The notes below the pieces were generated by a model. The model worked only from the letters and a program-made list of their open reading frames with translations, made no database searches and had not been told where the DNA came from. Shown here piece after piece: positions 2,233 through 62,774 of a stretch of 64,000 bases of DNA (position 1 is its first letter; each line of letters starts with the position of its first letter). This stretch comes from the human T2T-CHM13v2.0 reference genome, Homo sapiens, in NCBI RefSeq assembly GCF_009914755.1, contig NC_060943.1, one strand, 5' to 3'. Both the position numbers and the translations under genes were made by a program.

Positions 2233-3222
2233 TCACATTTTACAGGACAGGCCAAGGGACTTGGGCCCTCCTGGCTGCTGGGACTCCAGGCAGAAAGAGA
2301 GGAAGGGAGAGGCCCCCAGAAAGAGAGGAAGGGAGAGGCCAGGCGTGAGGGACCAGTGAGAGGAGCACAGAGGCCCCCAGATGGCAGGGGATGGACATGA
2401 ATGAGAAGAGGGTGCCAGGAGGCATCAGAGAGAGGGCTGGGGGCATCAGAGAGGGTGCCGGGGGCATCAGGCCTCCCCCGGGGGAGGGCAGAGGGAGGGG
2501 CCTCACCCAGGGAGAGAAGGTTCCAGTAGTTCTCCAGCATCACGTCTCCAGCAAACTTTCACCACATCACCAGATTTAGTCTGGCCCTGCTGTGGGCTTT
2601 TTTCCAGTGATCATGAGGGACCCAACAGCTGGGCACAGAACTCAGATTTGAGATTGGAAAAGACGGGGACTCTACTAAGGTGGATAGGATGGAGGCTACT
2701 CCCTCCTCCTGTCATTCACTCATTTATCCATTCATTAATTCATCCCACCAACCTTCCCAGGAGTTTCTGGTGAGCCACTGCCCATGTTGGGCAACGCTGG
2801 CGGCACAGAGTCTAGGCCGAGTCCTGACACTGCCCATGAATTTCAGCCCCTCATGCTCCCTGTGGCCCCAGAAGATCCTTCTACACCCAGAGCTTCCCCT
2901 CCCCTTCCTTGCTCACAGCCCTCCCGTGGCTCCCCAGTGGCCCCAGGACAGAGTCTCAGCCCCTCTGATACCATGCAGGACTTGCCCCACTCATCCCTAC
3001 AGCCTCATCTCTCCTCGCATTTGCAGAGACTCCTCTTTTTTGTGCCTCCATTTCCCCATCTGTAGAATGGAATTGTAATACCATCTGTCCGTCACTTCAG
3101 GGCCAAGTGAGAAAGCGCATCCTAAATAATGAAACAGGATTGACGTCTTCTCCTGTTGATGATTAGCATCTGTTTCAACTCTCTGTCTCTCACTCCCGAA
3201 CCTTCTGCACTTTCTCCTTTAG

Positions 3223-3288
3223 GAAAAGACTGTGACCAGCTTCACAAAAGGCAGCAAAGGACTATCAGAGAAAGAGAACTCCGAGTGA
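3223..3288 (+). CDS. SYT3: Last coding exon of synaptotagmin-3 (or a duplicated 3' fragment of it), encoding EKTVTSFTKGSKGLSEKENSE*
   Basis: Polypyrimidine tract and AG acceptor end at 3222. The 69-bp exon 3223-3291 is followed by a GTAAGC donor. The phase-0 translation matches my recollection of the human SYT3 C-terminus. No upstream C2B exon was found in 1-3222. Confidence 0.75.
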   Translation, partial: EKTVTSFTKGSKGLSEKENSE

Positions 3289-3309
3289 GGGGTAAGCAGC
3301 CTGGCCACA

Positions 3310-3415
3310 GGGAAGGGGCTGGGGGTGGAGATGCCTGCATCTGAGGGAGGAGGGGCTGGGGGCCTGGACTCCTGGGTCTGAGGGAGGAGGGGCTGGGCCT
3401 GGGACTCCTGGGTCT
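3310..3415 (+). repeat. MSR1-type ~37-bp minisatellite (about 2-3 copies) in the last intron
   Basis: Repeated ctgagggaggaggggctgggggcctggactcctgggt, the chr19q-enriched MSR1 unit. Confidence 0.8.
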
Positions 3416-3496
3416 CTGGGTGGTGATGGAGCTACAGGAGGTCGTGGTGCAGTTCTCTGCCATTGCTGACCCCTCCTTTCCTGCTCCATCGTGCAG

Positions 3497-3995
3497 GTCT
3501 GGCCTAGGCCCGGGATCGGACCAGGCTCCCTCAGGACCCCATCCTTTCCTGCCCGGACCGTGAATTCATCTCCTTGAAGCCATAACGTCCGAGCTGCTGG
3601 TGCGGGGCAGCCCTGGCCCTAGGCTTCCTACCCCTGGAAGCGAGAGGATGAGAGGAGGCCGGCCCAGCTCCTTCTTTCAGGGTGGGGGGCATTCAGCCTC
3701 CACTGTGTCTGTCTTTTCTTCCCTGGGGCTCCCCCTCGAGGCGAGGGGCCATGCATGTCTGGGGGACCCCTGCCCCCCAAAACCCTCTGTCTGTCTCTGT
3801 CTCTTTGCTGTTTGTCCAAGACTCAGTGTCCCGACCCTTGTTCTCGCCGTGAATGTCAATGGGCCAATCCTCTCTGTCCTTTCAGACACACACACACCTG
3901 TGTCCACCCCTTCTGTTCGCCACACCCTGCGTCTGGCCGGTCCCCCCACTGCTGCTGCTATCAACGCCAGAATAAACACACTCCGTGGGTCTCAC
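3497..3995 (+). other. SYT3: Non-coding terminal (3' UTR) exon of the SYT3-type transcript
   Basis: Acceptor cctcctttcctgctccatcgtgcag ends at 3496. AATAAA at 3971-3976 is followed by GU/U-rich sequence. The end coordinate is approximate. Confidence 0.65.
3971..3976 (+). terminator. Polyadenylation signal AATAAA
   Basis: Canonical hexamer ~475 bp after the last splice acceptor. Confidence 0.65.
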
Positions 3996-4196
3996 TCCAA
4001 CTGGGCCTCCTGTCCTCTCTGAGACTGGGAAACCGGATTGGAACATGCTGGCTCTGCAAGCAGACAAATTTGTGTTTCTTTCAATGACTGGGCAACTTAA
4101 TGATCTCTCTGAGCCTCAGTTTATAAAAATGGTGTTAGTCAGGATCATTGTGAGTACAGAACACAAAATTCAACCCAAAGCCATAAACAGAATTGA

Positions 4197-4465
<269 letters not shown>

Positions 4466-6429
4466 TAGTAGAGACGGGGTTTCACCATGTTGGCAGGCTG
4501 GTCTCGAGCTCCTGACCTCCTGTGATCTGCCCGCCTTGGCCTCCCAAAGCGCTGGGTTTACAGGCATGAGCCACCGCGCCTAGCTATTGGCTTCTCTCTC
4601 AGGTAGGTGTTTGCAGTGGCAATGAGATGGTCACTTGGAGCTCCAGGTGTATAATGCTGTATCTGTTATGATACCTTCGGCTGAAAAAAAAAAAAAACCT
4701 TCCCAACTGAAAGAGAAAGATTTTTTTGCATGTTTGCATATCAAATTTTTCAAAGACAGTCCCAGGGTTGGTTCAGCTGCTCAACAACATTAGGCTCTGG
4801 TTGGCATCTCTGAGACTGGTGTTCGTTCCCCTCCTGAGTACAAACTGTCTATAGCAGCATCATGTTCTCACACACTGGCATCTAAATCAGGCAGTGTAGA
4901 CCGGGGCCTCCCCTTCTGTGTTCCCCTTTTTTCCTCCTCAGAATAATTCTCCTTATTTCTCTCTTGCCAGAACCCGGCTGTGTGGCTACCCCGAGTTGCA
5001 AAGCGGTCTGGGTAGTGAACATCTGTCATTTCCAGTTCCCATGGTGGGGTGCAGCTTTGCCTAGAGGAAGCACGGGGAGGGGAACTATTGTTGGGTAGGA
5101 AATTAACAGGATCTGCTGCCATTGCAAGAAATTAACAGGACTTGTAATTGCCTTCAGAGCAGATAACTTCAGAGGAAACAATGTGAGAATCAGCTGGCTC
5201 CCAGCTGCTGCGTCATTCAGGAACAGGATTCTGATTGGTCCAGCGCAGACCTTGGAGACACCCCGGGCCAATCATTGGGTCCAGTTTGGAGCCTACTCTT
5301 GGGCCCGCCTCCTGCCTTTGCTGACTCCTCCTCCTCCTCCCCTGCCCATCTTGCCCAGGATTGGTCCAAAGCCCCTCTGGACCTCATCCCTTTTTGCTGG
5401 AAGGATGAATTCATCTCCTGGAAGCCATATATGTAGGGGTCCCTTGACTGACAGTTCCAAATGAATCACACGGCAATGGGCAAGGGACAGTCCCTCAAAG
5501 CAGTAGGTGTCCACTACATTCTACCCTCAGCTACTTCACACTAATTCACATCTACATTCCGGGACACAACATTTCAAAAACTCCCACTGCAAAAATTGGT
5601 CCAATCACTGTGTCAGTTTGCTAGGACTGATGTAACAGGTTACAATAACCTAGCTGAAAACAACAGAAATTTATTCTCTCACAGCTCTGGAGGCCAGAAG
5701 TCTGAAGTCAATGTGGTAGTAACCACCAGGCACAGTGGCTCATGCCTGTAAATCCCAGCACTTTGGGAGGCTGAGGCAGGAGGATTGCTCAAGCCCAGGA
5801 GTTTGAGACCAGGTAATATGGTGAGATTCTCTTAAAAAAAAAAAAAAAAAATTGGCCGGGCATGGTGATGTTCACTTGTAGTTCCAGCTACTTTGGAGGT
5901 CGAGGTGGGAGTATTGCTCGAGCTCAGGAGTTCGAGACCAGCCTGGGCAGCATAGCAAGACCCTGTCTCTACAACTAATAGTAGTAATAATAATAATAGT
6001 AAAATTATCCAGGCATGATGGTGCTCACCTGTAGTCCCAGCTACTCTGGTGGCTGAGGCAGGAGGATCACTTGAGCCCAGGAGTTTGAGGCTGCAGTGAG
6101 CTGTGATGGCACTGCTGCCCTGCATCTCAAAAACATGATGCCGTGTGATACAGCCAGATACAAGGGTATATGCTGTAGGATTCCACTTTTGTGAAATTGT
6201 AGAAAGAAAACACTAATATGGGCGGGGCATGGTGGCTCACGCCTGTAATCCTAGCACTTTGGGAGGCTGAGGCAGGCGGATTACTTGAGATCAGGAGTTC
6301 AAAAGCAGCCTGGCACCTGTAATCCCAGCTACCTGGGAGGCTGAGTAGGAGAATCGGGAGGCGGAGGTTGCAGTGGGCCGATCATGCCACTGCACTCCAG
6401 CCTGGGCAACAGAGTGAGACTCCAACTCA

Positions 6430-6441
6430 AAAAAGAAAGAG

Positions 6442-6472
<31 letters not shown>

Positions 6473-6496
6473 AGGAAGGAAGGAGAGAGAGACACA

Positions 6497-6562
<66 letters not shown>
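6430..6562 (+). repeat. (GA)n/(GAAA)n microsatellite grown from an Alu tail
   Basis: About 16 perfect aaga units at 6498-6562, preceded by GA repeats. Confidence 0.95.
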
Positions 6563-6563
<1 letters not shown>

Positions 6564-6649
6564 GGGCCAGAGGCCAGGCACGGTGGCTCACCCTGTAATC
6601 CCAGCACTTTGGGAGGCCGAGGCAGGTGGATCACGAGGTCAGGAGTTCA

Positions 6650-6883
<234 letters not shown>

Positions 6884-7082
6884 CTAATACGCAGGGGCAG
6901 AAAATGGATTAGTGGTTGACTGGGGGCAGTGGCAGTGGTTATGGAGAGACTGATTACTAGTGGACACAGGAAAACTTTCCGGATGATGGAAGTGATCACA
7001 CAACCGAATACATTTGTCAAAATTCATTGCGTTTAAAATTGGTTCATTTAAATTCTTGTACATTGTTGCAAAATACACATAA

Positions 7083-7268
<186 letters not shown>

Positions 7269-7656
7269 TAGCCAATTTTAAGTGTACAGTTGCATTGTTG
7301 TGCAATCATCACCCCTACTCATCTCCACTCTTTCCTCTTGTAGAATTGAAACTGTTCCCATCAAGCAACTCCCACTGCCTTCCCTTCCCAGCCCCTGGGA
7401 AGCACGTTCTACTCTCTGGGAAATTCCCTATGAATTTGACTACTCTAGGTACCTCATGTAAGTGGAATCATACAGCATCTGTCTTTTTGTGATGGGATTG
7501 TTTCACTTAGCATGAATGTCCTCAGGCTTCACCCATGTTGTAGCATGTGTTAGCATTTCCTTCCTTTTTAAGGTTAAATAATTTTCCATTATGGGCCTGG
7601 TGCAGTGGCTCACACCTGTAATCCCAGCACTTTGGGAGGAAGAGGCAGGCGGATCA

Positions 7657-7887
<231 letters not shown>

Positions 7888-8240
7888 TTATGTGTATATA
7901 CCACATTTTGTCGAACCATTTATTTGTTGATGAACAGCTGGGTTGCCTCCTTTACCTTTTGGGTATTGTAAATAATGCTGCTATGAAAGTGGGTTGCAAA
8001 TATCTTTTTGAAATATTGATCCATTTTCTTGTACACAAATTATATTTTGATAAAGTTGGCTAAAACTAATACTCCCACCTAACATAACTATCTCTAGTGC
8101 AACTGCAGAAGCTTTCACCCCTTCTGCAAAGGGAGGGATCCCAAAGCCACATCCAATCCTCAGACCAAGATTTCTGGATATTGGCTATTCCTTTCATCAA
8201 GGGCACATGGAGTCTCTCTTGATCCTGAAAATTAATGTTA

Positions 8241-8519
<279 letters not shown>

Positions 8520-8845
8520 CTAAAAAAAAAATTAATGTTAAATGAAATTGTAGCCCCCTCAGCAACCCACCCCTGTGTATAACAGTGGAGGAAAAACAAG
8601 AAAACAATCACAATTCTCACTTGAAAGGGGAGGGAAGAGAAACAAAATAGTATATGCCATTTGCTAGACTTGCCAAGACTCCTGCACTTTCAAGAGACAA
8701 AAAACCGGCCTTTTAAAAAATTATTGCCAAGCTCGGTGGCTCATGCCTGTAATTCCAGCACTTTGAGAGGCTAAGATTGGAGGATCACTAGAGCCCAGGA
8801 GTTCGAGACCCAGCCTTGGCAACATAGCAAGACTCCATCTCTTTA

Positions 8846-8885
<40 letters not shown>

Positions 8886-9039
8886 TAGCCAAGTGCCATG
8901 GTGTGCACCTGTAGTCCCAGCTACTCAAGAGGCTAAGGTGGGAGGATCGCTTGAGCCCAGGAGGTCAAGGCTGCAGTGAGCCATGGTTGAGCCACTGCAG
9001 TCCAGTCTGGACGACAGAGACCCAGTTTCAAAAAAAAAA

Positions 9040-11950
<2,911 letters not shown>

Positions 11951-12315
11951 ACTCTGGCTTTTTTTGTTTTTGACAAAGGGAATTTGTTGACTTATAGAAC
12001 CGAGCTATATAACTAGCTTCAGGCATAACTGGATCCAGGCACTAAAATGAATCTTTAGCAATACCGCTCATTTCCCATCTGGGCTTTACTTTTCTGTATC
12101 TTGACTTCCCTCTCAGGCAGAATCTCTTCCCTCACGGTGACAAACAGGGCCCACAGCAGCTCGAAGCTTCCATACTATCATTTTAACAACCTAGCTTATC
12201 ATTTTAACAACCTAGCAGAAAAGGGGTACTGCCTTCCTGAATGGTGATACCAAAGTCTCAAGGTTAGCTCTCATTGGCCCAACTTGGGTCACATGTCCAT
12301 TTCTATAGTAACCAT

Positions 12316-13200
<885 letters not shown>

Positions 13201-13329
13201 ACATCATAACCAAGGTCATGAAGTACTCAGGTTGGCCAGGTCTGACTCTTGTTCTCACTCTGAGATCCCTGGCAAGATCCAGTCAAAAAATGTATATTTT
13301 GCATGGAGAGGAGTGATAGGAAAATCAGA

Positions 13330-17830
<4,501 letters not shown>

Positions 17831-18823
17831 ATTAATGAAGAAGAAAATCAGAGATAACAGATGTCACTCAGGCAAAAATATCAGGTGTCCATTATAAGGA
17901 TCCAAGTTGCCCCTAGGTATTCACTCTAATAACAGTTTGCAACTTGGGGTATGCAGTATAGAAGGGATAAAGAGGCTGGCGCAGTGGTTCACGCCTGTAA
18001 GCCCAGCAGTCTGGAAAGCGGAGGCGGGCGGATCACCTGAGGTCAGGAGTTGAAGACCAGCCTGGCCAAAATGGGGAAACCTCGTCTCTATTAAAAATAC
18101 ACAAAATTGCCAGACATGGTGGCACGCGCCTGTAATCCCAGCTACTGGGTCGCTGAGGCAAAGGAATTGCTTGAACCTGGGAGGCGGGGGTTGCAGTGAG
18201 CCAAAATTGCGCCACTGCACTCCAGCCTGGGCAACAGAGTAAGACTCCACCTCAAAATAAAAATAAATAAATAAATAAATAATTAAATTTAAAAAAAGGC
18301 CAGGTAGCGGTGGCTCACACCTGTAATCCCACCACTTTGGGAGGCTGAGGCGGGCAGATCACAAGGTCAGGAGATAGAGACCATCCTAACACAGTGAAAC
18401 CCTTTCTCTACTAAAAATACAAAGAATTAGCTAGGCGTGGTGGCACGTGCCTGTAGTCCCAGCTACTCGGGAGGCTGAGGCAGATGAATCACTTGAACCC
18501 GGAAGGCAGAGGTTGCAGTCAGCCAAGATCGCACCACTGCCCTTGAGCCTCAGCGACGGAGCAAGACTCCATCTCAAAAAGAAGCCAAAAATACAAAAAT
18601 TAGCCAAGTGTGGTAGTGTGCGCCTGTAACCTCAGGGTGAGAGAGGAGACTCTCTTCAACCCAGAAGGCAGAGGTTACAGTGAGACGAGATCATAAGACT
18701 GCACTCCACCCTAGGCAACAGAGCAAGACTCCATCTCAAAAGATATATTGCAGTAATTTAAAAACAATTCTATTGGAAACGCAATTTCTTCCTGTCGAGA
18801 CCTCCCTTTATGACGGAACAATG

Positions 18824-18921
18824 AAAAAACAATTTTTTTCAATTTTGTCCAGGTTAGCTTCAAACACATAGCATCGCCAGCTTGTGCGCCAGGACAACCT
18901 GACGGAGCCACCGAAGCTGGT
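18824..18921 (-). ncRNA. Diverged snaR-related Pol III gene or pseudogene (~98 nt; probable CAS-type element)
   Basis: Minus strand reads CCAGCTTCGGTGGCTCCGTCAGGTTG...GTTTGAAGCTAACCTGGACAAAATTGAAAAAAATTGTTTTTT. It has an A-box-like motif, a degenerate B-box, an A-tract and a T6 terminator. Both flanks are homologous to the snaR-A flanks. Confidence 0.7.
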
Positions 18922-18968
18922 GGGAAAGTGCTCTCAATTTTTCCATTTGACCTTCTGGGGAGCGATGT

Positions 18969-19054
18969 AGCCAATCACGAGAGGCTCACCCCTGACATCA
19001 CCCAGTCCCCAGGGACAGAGAGGGCCCTGCGTTCCATGGCGCCCCCTGGAGGGA
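18969..19054 (-). promoter_or_regulatory. Upstream cassette of the snaR-like gene: CCAAT box (18971), TGACATCA and CTCF-like motif (19037-19054)
   Basis: agccaatcac; cctgacatcac; tggcgccccctggaggga (reverse complement TCCCTCCAGGGGGCGCCA). Confidence 0.6.
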
Positions 19055-19302
19055 GGAAGGGGAACTGTATCTGAGAGTTCAGTATCTGACAATAAGGAAA
19101 AGGCATAGTAGATCAGATGGTGCCTACTGTTCTGGAGAGAAGAAACAACGGGGTTGGGGAATGCGGAGTTGCAGTTTATAATACAGGCCTCATGTATAAG
19201 GCAGACCTCATGGGGAAGGTAACATCTGTGCAGAGAAATGGAGATGAGGGCTAGGAGCCATGCAAATACTGGAACATGCTTGCCAGCAGAAGTCGAGAAA
19301 CA

Positions 19303-19641
<339 letters not shown>

Positions 19642-20599: not shown

Positions 20600-20720
20600 A
20601 AAAAAAATCCTTTTTTCCGACCCATGTGGACCAGGCTGGCCTCGAACTCGTGCCCTGGAACCCCCGCCTCCGTGAGGGCCCGACGGCAGGCGCAACCGGC
20701 CTGAGCCACAATGGCTCCGG
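20600..20720 (-). ncRNA. SNAR-A: snaR-A small NF90-associated RNA, copy 1 (G37 variant)
   Basis: Reverse complement is CCGGAGCCATTGTGGCTCAGGCCGGTTGCGCCTGCCGTCGGGCCCTCACGGAGGCGGGGGTTCCAGGGCACGAGTTCGAGGCCAGCCTGGTCCACATGGGTCGGAAAAAAGGATTTTTTTT. A box at 20696-20708, B box GTTCGAGGC at 20639-20647, T8 terminator. Confidence 0.95.
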
Positions 20721-20767: not shown

Positions 20768-20853
20768 AGCCAATCACCAGAGGCTCCCCCCTGTCGTCAC
20801 CCAGTCCCCAGGGCCAGTGAGGGCCCTGCGTTCCATGGCGCCCCCTGGAGGGA
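20768..20853 (-). promoter_or_regulatory. snaR upstream cassette: NF-Y CCAAT box (20770), CGTCA half-CRE, CTCF-like motif (20836-20853); repeated before all 11 genes
   Basis: agccaatcac at about -50; gtcgtcac; TCCCTCCAGGGGGCGCCA on the minus strand at about -116 to -133. Confidence 0.65.
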
Positions 20854-42764: not shown

Positions 42765-42885
42765 AAAAAAAATCCTTTTTTCCGACCCATGTGGACCAGG
42801 CTGGCCTCGAACTCGTGCCCTGGAACCCCCGCCTCCGTGAGGGCCCGACGGCAGGCGCAACCGGCCTGAGCCACAATGGCTCCGG
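42765..42885 (-). ncRNA. SNAR-A: snaR-A copy 6 (G37)
   Basis: Same as copy 1. Confidence 0.95.
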
Positions 42886-45828: not shown

Positions 45829-45949
45829 AAAAAAAATCCTTTTTTCCGACCCATGTGGACCAGGCTGGCCTCGAACTCGTGCCCTGGAACCCCCGCCTCC
45901 GTGAGGGCCCGAGGGCAGGCGCAACCGGCCTGAGCCACAATGGCTCCGG
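45829..45949 (-). ncRNA. SNAR-A: snaR-A copy 7 (C37)
   Basis: Same as copy 3. Confidence 0.95.
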
Positions 45950-59587: not shown

Positions 59588-59708
59588 AAAAAAAATCCTT
59601 TTTTCCGACCCATGTGGACCAGGCTGGCCTCGAACTCGTGCCCTGGAACCCCCGCCTCCGTGAGGGCCCGAGGGCAGGCGCAACCGGCCTGAGCCACAAT
59701 GGCTCCGG
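59588..59708 (-). ncRNA. SNAR-A: snaR-A copy 10 (C37)
   Basis: Same as copy 3. Confidence 0.95.
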
Positions 59709-62653: not shown

Positions 62654-62774
62654 AAAAAAAATCCTTTTTTCCGACCCATGTGGACCAGGCTGGCCTCGAA
62701 CTCGTGCCCTGGAACCCCCGCCTCCGTGAGGGCCCGACGGCAGGCGCAACCGGCCTGAGCCACAATGGCTCCGG
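62654..62774 (-). ncRNA. SNAR-A: snaR-A copy 11 (G37)
   Basis: Same as copy 1. Confidence 0.95.

What the first reader, a model, noticed from the sequence alone, without database searches (positions are those of the whole stretch)
18740..18980. Hidden twelfth gene: a highly diverged snaR-like Pol III unit (probable CAS ancestor) at the array edge
Seen: the minus strand of 18824-18921 has A-box-like TGGCTCCGTCAGG (snaR: TGGCTCAGGCCGG), B-box-like GTTTGAAGC (snaR: GTTCGAGGC), CCTGG, an A7 tract and a T6 terminator. It sits the same ~50 bp from a CCAAT box as snaR-A. The 3' flank is also homologous (agtaatttaaaaaca...atttcttcct...cctccctttatg). It is ~23 nt shorter and lacks the GC-rich central expansion. 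Established: snaR descends from the Alu left monomer via ASR and CAS elements. Inference: a relic of the progenitor is preserved 1.8 kb from its amplified descendant. The C>T change in the B box predicts weak or no transcription.
Basis: partly seen in the sequence, partly recalled or inferred. Interest (0 to 1): 0.8.

Follow-up and report, generated by a model that had tools for sequence, protein, structure and literature searches.

The report
Decayed CAS relic beside snaR-A array
The snaR-like unit at the edge of the human snaR-A gene array is real, but it is a decayed copy of an older relative of snaR (a CAS element) that arrived inside a large duplicated block from the snaR-F/SYT3 region, and it is probably silent.

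Summary
Window 18824-18921 (minus strand) holds a 98-nt snaR-like unit with A-box-like and B-box-like motifs, an A7 tract, a T6 run and homologous flanks.

It is not a snaR. The Rfam snaR-A model finds all 11 array genes but not this unit. Its architecture is that of a CAS element (catarrhine ancestor of snaR; Parrott et al. 2011). It has the delta1 and delta2 deletions and lacks the epsilon1 and epsilon2 expansions. The body is 82 nt, with the boxes at the published positions.

It is not an in-situ progenitor either. Window 2553-19019 is an inverted duplicate, 98.1% identical over 14,664 aligned bases, of chr19:53,697,392-53,712,177. That is the third ~1.9-kb repeat of the snaR-F parental locus plus sequence running towards a C2-domain gene. 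It matches the published "~14.9 kb SYT3-homologous flank" of the A/B/D cluster.

About 100 nt upstream of the unit, at 19020-19028, the sequence switches to array type (99.3% to snaR-A4), so the unit is a hybrid.

The B box has lost its invariant C, a change shared with the parental copy. The two copies differ at about the neutral rate, and the predicted fold is unremarkable. The unit is most likely a silent relic.

Interest is low. The family and the duplication are in print, but this copy carries no RefSeq annotation in the table supplied with the finding.

The parts
18824..18921 (-). CAS-type element. The body is 82 nt (18840-18921), followed by A7 (18833-18839), TTG and T6 (18824-18829).
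   Evidence: Sequence read. It is colinear with dispersed CAS copies and lacks epsilon1, epsilon2 and the delta2 segment. It shares the 17-nt delta1 gap against Alu left monomers. It is 95 of 98 identical to the parental repeat-3 element and 58 of 98 to snaR-A4.
18900..18910 (-). A-box-like TGGCTCCGTCA.
   Evidence: It lies within the +11 to +22 span that PMC3045588 gives for the CAS A box. It matches 4 of the 6 specified positions of TRGYnnAnnnG (consensus quoted in PMC4333407); snaR-A4 matches 5 of 6.
18857..18865 (-). Decayed B box GTTTGAAGC at +57 to +65. The invariant C is replaced by T at window 18862.
   Evidence: The position equals the CAS B-box position in PMC3045588. It matches 6 of 7 specified positions of GWTCRAnnC, and the miss is in the 'invariant TC'. 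The parental repeat-3 copy has the same 12-mer GTGTTTGAAGCT.
18922..19019 (-). Proximal upstream region of repeat-3 type. It includes ATTGG (CCAAT box) at 18971-18975 and TGATGTCA at 18993-19000.
   Evidence: 86 of 87 aligned bases identical to parental repeat 3, against 73 of 98 to snaR-A4. It keeps 11 nt (18979-18989) that today's parental repeat 3 has lost.
19020..19028 (.). Junction interval between the duplicated parental block and array-type sequence. The conservative interval is 19020-19045.
   Evidence: Informative-site scan. Every site from 19029 upwards is snaR-A type. From 19019 down to the 3' flank sites are repeat-3 type, apart from 18949 and a few scattered sites, the 11-nt block deleted in today's repeat 3, and the alignment's ragged end.
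19029..19320 (-). Distal upstream region of array type. 19029-19077 is parent-derived Core of the repeat-1/snaR-A kind. Beyond 19077 the sequence is not homologous to the parental repeats.
   Evidence: 289 of 291 identical to snaR-A4 upstream and about 49% to the parental repeats. 39 of 39 non-self scored matches to window 19300-18942 are snaR upstream regions at 94-95%.
2553..19019 (.). Inverted segmental duplicate of chr19:53,697,392-53,712,177 (CHM13). This span covers repeat 3 of the snaR-F parental locus and runs towards a C2-domain gene.
   Evidence: Three megablast blocks at 96.5-98.0%. Global alignment gives 14,664 aligned positions, 278 mismatches, 98.10% identity and K2P 0.0192. The window has an extra 1,677 bases after 13768.
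18745..18823 (-). 3' flank of repeat-3 type. The Alu-derived stretch begins at about 18741.
   Evidence: 78 of 79 identical to parental repeat 3, against 58 of 76 to snaR-A4.

Best explanation
Window 18824-18921 (minus strand) is a CAS element (catarrhine ancestor of snaR), an Alu-left-monomer-derived type-2 Pol III unit of the grade that preceded snaR. It did not arise or stay here. It is the copy of the CAS element of the third ~1.9-kb repeat of the snaR-F parental locus. It came to the edge of the snaR A/B/D cluster inside a ~14.7-kb inverted segmental duplication that also carries sequence from the 3' side of a C2-domain gene, SYT3 according to the paper. The duplicated block meets the array inside the short stretch of homology that the parental repeats share with the snaR-A Core, about 100 nt upstream of the element. 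The terminal array unit is therefore a hybrid: a snaR-A-type distal upstream region joined to a repeat-3-type proximal promoter, body and 3' flank. Shown: identity, origin, hybrid structure, CAS architecture and decayed B box. Inferred: the junction was made by homology-guided recombination or template switching; the duplication is roughly 10 million years old; the element is transcriptionally silent or very weak because TFIIIC cannot bind a B box lacking its invariant C; and it has drifted neutrally since the duplication.
For: (1) Origin. The body plus 3' flank has exactly one near-identical paralogue in the genome, chr19:53,697,510-53,697,714, at 98% (10 of 10 candidates scored). Window 2553-19077 aligns in inverted orientation to chr19:53,697,392-53,712,177 at 96.5-98%. 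The global alignment shows 98.10% over 14,664 positions.
(2) Position in the parental locus. Rfam finds snaR-F at chr19:53,693,790-53,693,905 (83 bits). Three repeats start at 53,693,634, 53,695,523 and 53,697,392, and the candidate matches the third at 94.6%, against 71% and 69% for the first and second.
(3) Agreement with print. PMC3045588 describes a triple ~1.9-kb repeat with snaR-F in the first repeat, and a ~14.9-kb flank of the A/B/D cluster homologous to neighbouring chr19 sequence including the last two SYT3 exons (sections 15 and 19). C2-domain exons lie on the minus strand 2-6 kb beyond the parental end (3 of 75 ORFs).
(4) Hybrid structure. 289 of 291 bases match snaR-A4 at 19030-19320. 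Then 86 of 87, 95 of 98 and 78 of 79 match repeat 3 in the proximal upstream, body and 3' flank. The switch between 19029 and 19019 is clean.
(5) CAS architecture. The delta1 gap of 17 nt is shared with CAS and ASR copies. There is no delta2 segment and no epsilon1 or epsilon2. A dispersed CAS used as query finds the candidate (81%) and repeat 3 (82%) among 31 places and no snaR.
(6) Tree. In the 32-row, 86-column tree the candidate and repeat 3 are sisters (100/100) inside a clade of six dispersed CAS (96/92). snaR-F and snaR-A4 lie in another clade (99/92).
(7) Silence. There is no Rfam snaR-A hit even at E<=10, while 11 of 11 array genes score 138.6-143 bits. The B box has T for the invariant C. 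Mutating the invariant TC dinucleotide sharply reduces Alu transcription (PMC4333407 passages). snaR-A relies on an intragenic promoter (PMC2094060 passages). The fold is -28 kcal/mol with z -1.39, and 20 of 200 shuffles fold as well. The body differs from repeat 3 at 3 of 98 aligned positions plus 1 gap, which is not lower than the 1.9% of the whole block.
Against: No expression or occupancy data could be consulted, so silence is inferred from sequence alone. 7SL genes are transcribed with a non-consensus B box when upstream elements help (PMC4333407 discussion). This unit keeps a conserved upstream block with a CCAAT box and sits beside a very active Pol III array. The A-box-like motif and a T6 terminator are intact.

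I could not confirm SYT3 exons inside the window copy: 0 of 9 plus-strand ORFs at 2405-4087 hit a C2 domain.

The breakpoint interval depends on three sites private to today's repeat 3 (19029, 19041, 19055) that could have changed after the duplication. Without them the interval widens to 19020-19045.

The tree rests on 86 columns, and the candidate/repeat-3 stem is long (0.21).

No other primate genome could be searched, so the direction and date of the duplication rest on the paper's statement that the triple repeat is syntenic in macaque.
Confidence: 0.85

Rival explanations
1. One reading: the unit is the progenitor, or a relic of it, preserved in place. The neighbouring snaR-A array was amplified from it.
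For: It is CAS-grade and lies 1.8 kb from snaR-A4. Its distal upstream region is 99.3% identical to snaR-A4 upstream. Its flanks are homologous to snaR-A flanks.
Against: From 19019 leftwards for 14.7 kb the sequence is a 98.1% copy of the snaR-F-side locus. The snaR-A Core is closer to repeat 1 (92.1%) than the candidate is. The candidate groups with a different CAS subclade from the snaRs. The paper places assembly of the A/B/C/D duplicon at the A/C cluster site. The 99% upstream identity stops abruptly at 19029.
Confidence: 0.04
2. It is a live, unannotated Pol III gene that gives a ~90-nt CAS-like RNA. Transcription would be helped by the conserved upstream block and by the high local concentration of Pol III factors at the array.
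For: The A-box-like motif, T6 terminator and CCAAT-containing upstream block are kept. 7SL shows that a poor B box can be offset by upstream elements (PMC4333407). The paper regards parental-locus CAS elements such as Mm19 and Pa19 as transcriptionally viable.
Against: The B box lacks the invariant C and differs from the dispersed CAS majority sequence (GCGTTCGAGGCC) at 4 of 12 positions, counted by eye from the rows listed. snaR-A transcription is intragenic. There is no sign of constraint since the duplication (3 of 98 aligned positions differ, against 1.9% block-wide). The fold is not better than shuffles. There is no Rfam hit.
Confidence: 0.1
3. The hybrid junction is secondary. The duplicated block originally reached further into the parental repeats, and gene conversion from the neighbouring snaR-A unit later overwrote its distal upstream part. 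This differs from the best explanation only in how the junction arose.
For: The array is homogenised: snaR-A4 and snaR-A5 upstream regions are 99.0% identical. The candidate's distal upstream region is as close to snaR-A4 (99.3%) as array units are to each other, much closer than the 98.1% of the duplicated block.
Against: Beyond 19077 the sequence is non-homologous to the parental repeats (about 49%). Conversion would therefore have had to run across a homology boundary. A simple junction between two blocks explains this without extra steps.
Confidence: 0.2
4. It is an independent retrotransposed CAS copy that landed by chance beside the array.
For: Most CAS copies are dispersed retrocopies with A-tails (PMC3045588 section 18).
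Against: Both flanks are homologous to all three parental repeats. The element ends in A7-TTG-T6 like the parental-locus elements, not in a long A-tail. It is embedded in a 14.7-kb duplication.
Confidence: 0.01

Closest known systems
CAS elements of the snaR parental locus (Mm19, Mm19i, Pa19 in Parrott et al. 2011, PMC3045588), and here the human repeat-3 element at chr19:53,697,540-53,697,626
   Same: Same architecture: about 85 nt, delta1 and delta2 deletions, no epsilon expansions. A and B boxes lie at +11-22 and +57-65. The 3' end has an oligo(A) then oligo(T) tract. The flanks are parental-locus sequence rather than target-site duplications. The candidate is 95 of 98 identical to the human repeat-3 element.
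   Different: This copy lies 606 kb away in inverted orientation inside a segmental duplication. Its distal upstream region has been replaced by snaR-A-array sequence. Its B box is decayed, whereas the paper describes Mm19 and Pa19 as having a B box. Macaque and orangutan sequences could not be compared here.
Dispersed CAS retrocopies
   Same: 76-81% identity over 75-86 nt. The candidate is colinear with them without indels in the body. It falls in a supported clade with six of them.
   Different: The dispersed copies end in long A-tails and have unrelated flanks. The candidate/repeat-3 lineage has a long private stem (0.21 changes per site).
snaR-A and snaR-F (Rfam RF02556)
   Same: Common descent, homologous flanks, the same CCAAT spacing, and the same A-tract then T-tract 3' end.
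   Different: No epsilon1 or epsilon2. The candidate is 23 nt shorter. Body identity is 59-63%. There is no covariance-model hit. The predicted fold is -28 against -53.9 kcal/mol.
snaR-21 and snaR-12 (intermediates or pseudogenes in PMC3045588)
   Same: snaR-21 is said to lack both expansions, as this unit does.
   Different: According to the paper those have snaR-like substitutions and target-site duplications. This unit has CAS-like substitutions and parental flanks. Their sequences were not fetched here.
ASR elements and the Alu left monomer (FLAM C)
   Same: They share the A-box region and B-box region. ASR also shares delta1.
   Different: ASR-like copies carry an extra 13-16 nt before the A-tail (16 of 28 dispersed copies). 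Alu left monomers carry the 17 nt that delta1 removed.

Membership tests
snaR / snaR-A (Rfam RF02556) | Scores against the snaR-A covariance model (gathering score 98 bits). | tested here: not met
   No hit at E<=10 in a 4-kb search or a 171-base search. 11 of 11 array genes score 138.6-143 bits and snaR-F scores 83 bits.
snaR / snaR-A (Rfam RF02556) | Two 8-nt internal expansions, epsilon1 and epsilon2, between the A and B boxes (PMC3045588). | tested here: not met
   Both blocks are gaps in the candidate and in repeat 3, as in all 28 dispersed CAS/ASR copies. Both are present in snaR-F and snaR-A4.
snaR / snaR-A (Rfam RF02556) | RNA of about 117-121 nt folding into a long, very stable hairpin. 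| tested here: not met
   98 nt, -28 kcal/mol, z -1.39, and 20 of 200 shuffles fold as well. snaR-A4 folds at -53.9 kcal/mol.
snaR / snaR-A (Rfam RF02556) | Binds NF90 and is Pol III transcribed. | not testable with these tools
CAS (catarrhine ancestor of snaR) | About 85 nt, excluding the 3' oligo(A/T) tract. | tested here: met
   82 nt from 18921 to 18840, then A7-TTG-T6.
CAS (catarrhine ancestor of snaR) | delta1: a 17-19-nt internal deletion relative to FLAM C / the Alu left monomer. | tested here: met
   A 17-column gap against two Alu left monomers of the window, shared with an ASR-like and a CAS copy.
CAS (catarrhine ancestor of snaR) | delta2: lacks the ~13-nt 3' segment that ASR keeps. 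| tested here: met
   The candidate and repeat 3 align with the 12 CAS-like copies and lack the 13-16 nt present in the 16 ASR-like copies.
CAS (catarrhine ancestor of snaR) | Type-2 Pol III boxes: A box at +11-22 and B box at +57-65. The paper says 'most' CAS contain them. | tested here: inconclusive
   Both motifs sit at exactly these positions when +1 is 18921, but the B box reads GTTTGAAGC and has lost the invariant C. Only 9 of 28 dispersed copies keep the TTCGA core, so loss does not exclude membership.
CAS (catarrhine ancestor of snaR) | Reciprocal sequence similarity to other CAS copies. | tested here: met
   The candidate finds 8 dispersed copies. A dispersed chr11 copy finds the candidate at 81% among 31 places. 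A tree clade with six CAS copies has 96/92 support.
CAS (catarrhine ancestor of snaR) | [quoted passage not shown] | not testable with these tools
   No primate genome other than the window's own assembly is held.
Active type-2 Pol III gene | B box matching GWTCRAnnC with the invariant TC. | tested here: not met
   GTTTGAAGC matches 6 of 7 specified positions, and the miss is the invariant C (consensus from PMC4333407). snaR-A4 GTTCGAGGC matches 7 of 7.
Active type-2 Pol III gene | Terminator of four or more T. | tested here: met
   T6 at 18824-18829.
Active type-2 Pol III gene | Pol III/TFIIIC/BRF1 occupancy and a transcript. | not testable with these tools
   No ChIP or RNA-seq data are available.

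The most novel reading that the evidence does not exclude
The hybrid unit joins a snaR-A-type distal upstream region to a CAS-grade proximal promoter and body. It may be weakly transcribed by Pol III in cells where the neighbouring array is highly active. That would give humans a living CAS-grade RNA that can be told from its parental copy by three differences. Separately, the junction lies inside 9-26 nt of shared sequence within the Core, which would record the template-switch or recombination event that attached the SYT3-side block to the A/B/D cluster.
Probability: 0.1. Interest if true: 0.4.

Novelty: new member of a known kind. Interest (0 to 1): 0.2.

Why it matters
It matters mainly as a correction and an annotation. 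The unannotated snaR-like unit at the array edge is a CAS-grade element, and its history can be read exactly. It is a copy of repeat 3 of the snaR-F parental locus, moved in a ~14.7-kb inverted duplication and fused to the terminal snaR-A unit within shared Core sequence.

For people working on snaR evolution this adds three things:
- a base-level junction for a duplication that the literature describes only in outline;
- a second human copy of the repeat-3 CAS that keeps 11 nt and a CpG lost from the parental copy;
- a warning that reads from either copy can mis-map to the other.

It does not change the published model, in which snaR arose in the first repeat, and it does not add a functional gene.

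Tried and rejected
Rfam searches of the unit gave only chance-level hits: CRISPR-DR2, ceN33 and mir-1814 at E 4.5-9.4.

The bacterial promoter/terminator scan does not apply to a human Pol III unit and is disregarded.

Pfam scans for SYT3 exons inside the window copy found no C2 domain: 0 of 9 ORFs, with one chance TMEM51 hit at E 0.24. None of the 15 minus-strand ORFs of L034 at the parental end hit C2 either. C2 exons were found only further on, in L065 (3 of 60 ORFs there). I therefore could not confirm from sequence the paper's statement that the last two SYT3 exons lie inside the block.

The supplement of PMC3045588 (lists of CAS loci; Figures S9 and S10C) is held only as .doc and .pdf and could not be read. 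I cannot say whether this exact copy is already listed.

Literature searches gave the following. 'catarrhine ancestor of snaR' found 2 papers, both by the same group. 'snaR-A' with 'T2T' found 0 papers. PMC9151912 was searched for B box, upstream, methylation, CAS and snaR-B and holds nothing on CAS.

The hypotheses of a retrocopy and of an in-situ progenitor were considered and rejected on flank homology (see the rival explanations).
Full report
**What is there.** Read on the minus strand, window 18921-18824 is a 98-nt unit. It starts with ACCAGCTTCGG and has an A-box-like TGGCTCCGTCA at 18900-18910 and a B-box-like GTTTGAAGC at 18857-18865. CCTGG follows, then an A7 tract (18833-18839), TTG and a T6 run (18824-18829). 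ATTGG, a CCAAT box on the other strand, lies at 18971-18975, 50 nt before 18921. In snaR-A4 the same motif lies at 20770-20774, 50 nt before the gene start at 20720. A pairwise alignment with the snaR-A4 unit shows near-identity far upstream, a strongly diverged body that lacks the GC-rich centre, and a homologous 3' flank. The window holds 11 snaR-A genes that pass Rfam's gathering score (BLAST agrees). This unit would be a twelfth snaR-related unit.

**It is not a snaR.** The Rfam snaR-A model (RF02556) scores snaR-A4 at 138.6 bits. It gives no match to the unit at E<=10, either in a 4-kb search or in a 171-base search with the laxest filters. The same model detects the divergent snaR-F at 83 bits. 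The predicted fold is -28 kcal/mol with z -1.39, and 20 of 200 shuffles fold at least as well. snaR-A4 folds at -53.9 kcal/mol.

**Where it comes from.** The distal upstream part, window 19300 down to 18942, matches the upstream regions of snaR genes at 94-95% in 39 of 39 non-self scored matches; 87 first-look candidates were found and 40 scored. The body plus 3' flank (18950-18745) behaves differently. It has one near-identical paralogue in the whole assembly, chr19:53,697,510-53,697,714, on the plus strand at 98%. It also has eight dispersed hits of 75-110 nt on chromosomes 11, 6, 10, 13 and 7 at 71-81%; all 10 candidates were scored.

Megablast of window 1-22000 against 40 kb around that paralogue gives three inverted blocks: 2553-6008, 5976-13784 and 15447-19077, at 98.0, 96.8 and 96.5%. 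A global alignment gives 14,664 aligned positions, 278 mismatches (98.10%) and K2P 0.0192. The window has one extra 1,677 bases after 13768.

Rfam places snaR-F at chr19:53,693,790-53,693,905. The candidate region matches three tandem places that start at 53,693,634, 53,695,523 and 53,697,392, with spacings of 1,889 and 1,869 bases. The match to the third is by far the best: 94.6% against 71% and 69%.

This agrees with Parrott et al. 2011 (PMC3045588). I read sections 15, 18 and 19 and passages elsewhere. The paper describes a triple ~1.9-kb tandem repeat at the snaR parental locus, with snaR-F in the first repeat. [quoted passage not shown] The parental span found here is 14,786 bases. C2-domain exons lie on the minus strand 2-6 kb beyond its far end (3 of 75 ORFs scanned), consistent with a synaptotagmin gene. 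I could not detect C2-coding exons inside the window copy itself (0 of 9 ORFs).

**The unit is a hybrid.** I aligned the candidate with the 11 array units and the three parental repeats and scored every column where the array consensus differs from repeat 3. The switch is clean. All informative sites from 19029 upwards follow the array. From 19019 down to the 3' flank they follow repeat 3, apart from 18949 and a few scattered sites.

| Segment (window) | Identity to snaR-A4 | Identity to parental repeat 3 |
|---|---|---|
| 19030-19320, distal upstream | 289/291 (99.3%) | about 49% |
| 18922-19019, proximal upstream | 73/98 (74.5%) | 86/87 (98.9%) |
| 18824-18921, body | 58/98 (59.2%) | 95/98 (96.9%) |
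| 18745-18823, 3' flank | 58/76 (76.3%) | 78/79 (98.7%) |

An 11-nt stretch (18979-18989) is absent from today's parental repeat 3 but present in repeats 1 and 2. Its two variable positions match those repeats rather than snaR-A, so the window copy keeps an older state of repeat 3 there.

Beyond 19077 the sequence is unrelated to the parental repeats but shared with the array. The junction at 19020-19028 therefore lies about 50 nt inside the parent-derived Core of the array unit. Three of the seven array-type sites in 19029-19077 (19029, 19041, 19055) are private to today's repeat 3 and might postdate the duplication. The conservative interval is therefore 19020-19045.

I infer that the block was joined to the terminal array unit by homology-guided recombination or template switching. 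Later gene conversion from the array is a possible alternative.

The 1.8 kb between this unit and snaR-A4 is array sequence. For example, 19308-20000 matches 11 other array units at 96.7-96.8%. It is not a parental 1.9-kb repeat.

**What kind of element it is.** Aligned with the dispersed hits, the unit is colinear with them and lacks both 8-nt blocks that snaR-F and snaR-A4 carry.

A dispersed chr11 copy used as query finds 31 places. These include the parental repeat-3 element (82%) and the candidate (81%), but no snaR. Thirty of the 31 became loci. The chr1 hit got no locus and was left out. L050 and L052 are repeat 3 and the candidate themselves and were replaced by my own extractions.

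Of the 28 dispersed copies, 16 carry an extra 13-16 nt before the A-tail, which is the ASR state. The other 12 do not, which is the CAS state. The candidate and repeat 3 lack it.

Against two Alu left monomers of the window, the candidate, repeat 3, one CAS copy and one ASR-like copy share a 17-nt gap, which is delta1.

With +1 at 18921, the A-box-like motif falls in +11-22 and the B-box-like motif at +57-65. These are the positions the paper gives for CAS. The body is 82 nt, against the paper's ~85 nt. The unit therefore meets the structural definition of CAS.

In an IQ-TREE tree of 32 rows and 86 kept columns, the candidate and repeat 3 are sisters (100/100) on a long stem (0.21). They sit inside a clade with six dispersed CAS copies (96/92). 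snaR-F and snaR-A4 sit in another clade with four other CAS-like copies (99/92). With so few columns this is suggestive only. It does agree with the flank evidence that the repeat-3 lineage is a sibling of the snaR progenitor, not the progenitor itself.

**Likely activity.** snaR-A is transcribed from an intragenic promoter, and constructs without upstream sequence still work (PMC2094060 passages). The B-box consensus is GWTCRAnnC. Replacing its invariant TC dinucleotide sharply reduces Alu transcription in vitro (PMC4333407 passages). The unit reads GTTTGAAGC, so it has lost the invariant C (window 18862) at a CpG.

Over the 12-mer it differs from the dispersed CAS majority sequence (GCGTTCGAGGCC) at 4 positions, all transitions, counted by eye from the rows listed. 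The parental copy has the identical 12-mer, so the decay predates the duplication. Among the 28 dispersed copies only 9 keep the TTCGA core, which is the usual fate of unconstrained copies.

Since the duplication the two bodies differ at 3 of 98 aligned positions plus one gap. Read from the sequences, these are two substitutions, at 18903 and 18848, and A7 against A8. This is no lower than the 1.9% of the block as a whole, so there is no sign of constraint.

I conclude that the unit is most likely silent or nearly so. This is inference from sequence, since no ChIP or RNA data could be consulted. The same paper notes that 7SL genes work with a poor B box thanks to upstream elements, so a low level of transcription is not excluded.

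**Age (inference).** K2P 0.0192 between the two copies suggests about 10 million years. This assumes roughly 1e-9 changes per site per year per lineage, a rate I recall rather than one computed here. [quoted passage not shown] Gene conversion would make it an underestimate.

**Novelty.** The CAS family, the parental triple repeat and the ~14.9-kb flanking duplication are all in print. The main text of PMC3045588 and the first of three parts of PMC3337139 do not mention a CAS element at the edge of the A/B/D cluster. The supplement that lists CAS loci and draws the duplication could not be read. Only two papers in the library use the name of the family, and none pairs snaR-A with T2T. The unit carries no annotation in the RefSeq table supplied with the finding. 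I file it as a new, or at least unannotated, member of a known kind. The only detail that may be new is the base-level hybrid junction.

Noticed in passing
window 42765-42885, 45829-45949, 59588-59708, 62654-62774 (minus strand): Four snaR-A genes pass Rfam's gathering score (138.6-143 bits) and are 99-100% identical to snaR-A4. None is in the RefSeq table supplied with the finding, which lists 7 of the 11 in the window.
   Followed up: partly
window 13768-15445: A stretch of 1,677 bases is present in the window copy of the duplication but absent from the parental locus. It lies in repeat-masked sequence. It is either an insertion here or a deletion there after the duplication.
   Followed up: no
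L033 about 2650-2770 (chr19:53,695,650-53,695,770): The second parental repeat holds a CAS/snaR-related remnant with an internal deletion of about 46 nt that removes the region between the A and B boxes.
   Followed up: partly
window 18979-18989, and the equivalent gap in L033 near 4480: Today's parental repeat 3 has lost 11 nt of the conserved upstream block. The window copy and repeats 1 and 2 keep them, so the duplicate preserves the older state.
   Followed up: yes
window 18993-19000; snaR-F upstream in L033 about 690-700: The conserved block upstream of all these units contains a perfect CRE-like palindrome, TGACGTCA, only upstream of snaR-F. The candidate and repeats 2 and 3 read TGATGTCA, and snaR-A units read TGACGACA. 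The CCAAT box is kept in all of them. The CRE assignment is from memory and was not tested.
   Followed up: no
window 3223-3291 and 3497-3681 (plus strand): The last two annotated exons of the lncRNA ZNF473CR lie inside the duplicated SYT3-side block. They may therefore derive from duplicated sequence. No C2-domain coding potential was found around them.
   Followed up: partly
window 18824-18921 against its flanks: Between the repeat-3 lineage and the repeat-1/snaR-A lineage the element body is more diverged (59-63% identity) than its flanks (74-79%). [quoted passage not shown]
   Followed up: partly
L045 (chr11:508,843-508,935), L054 (chr13), L055 (chr4), L064 (chr2): Four dispersed CAS-like copies share snaR-like substitutions (for example CACTCGGGGAGGCG and GGTCAACATTGA). 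They group with snaR-F and snaR-A4 at 99/92 support. They may be retrocopies made from the first parental repeat shortly before the epsilon expansions.
   Followed up: partly
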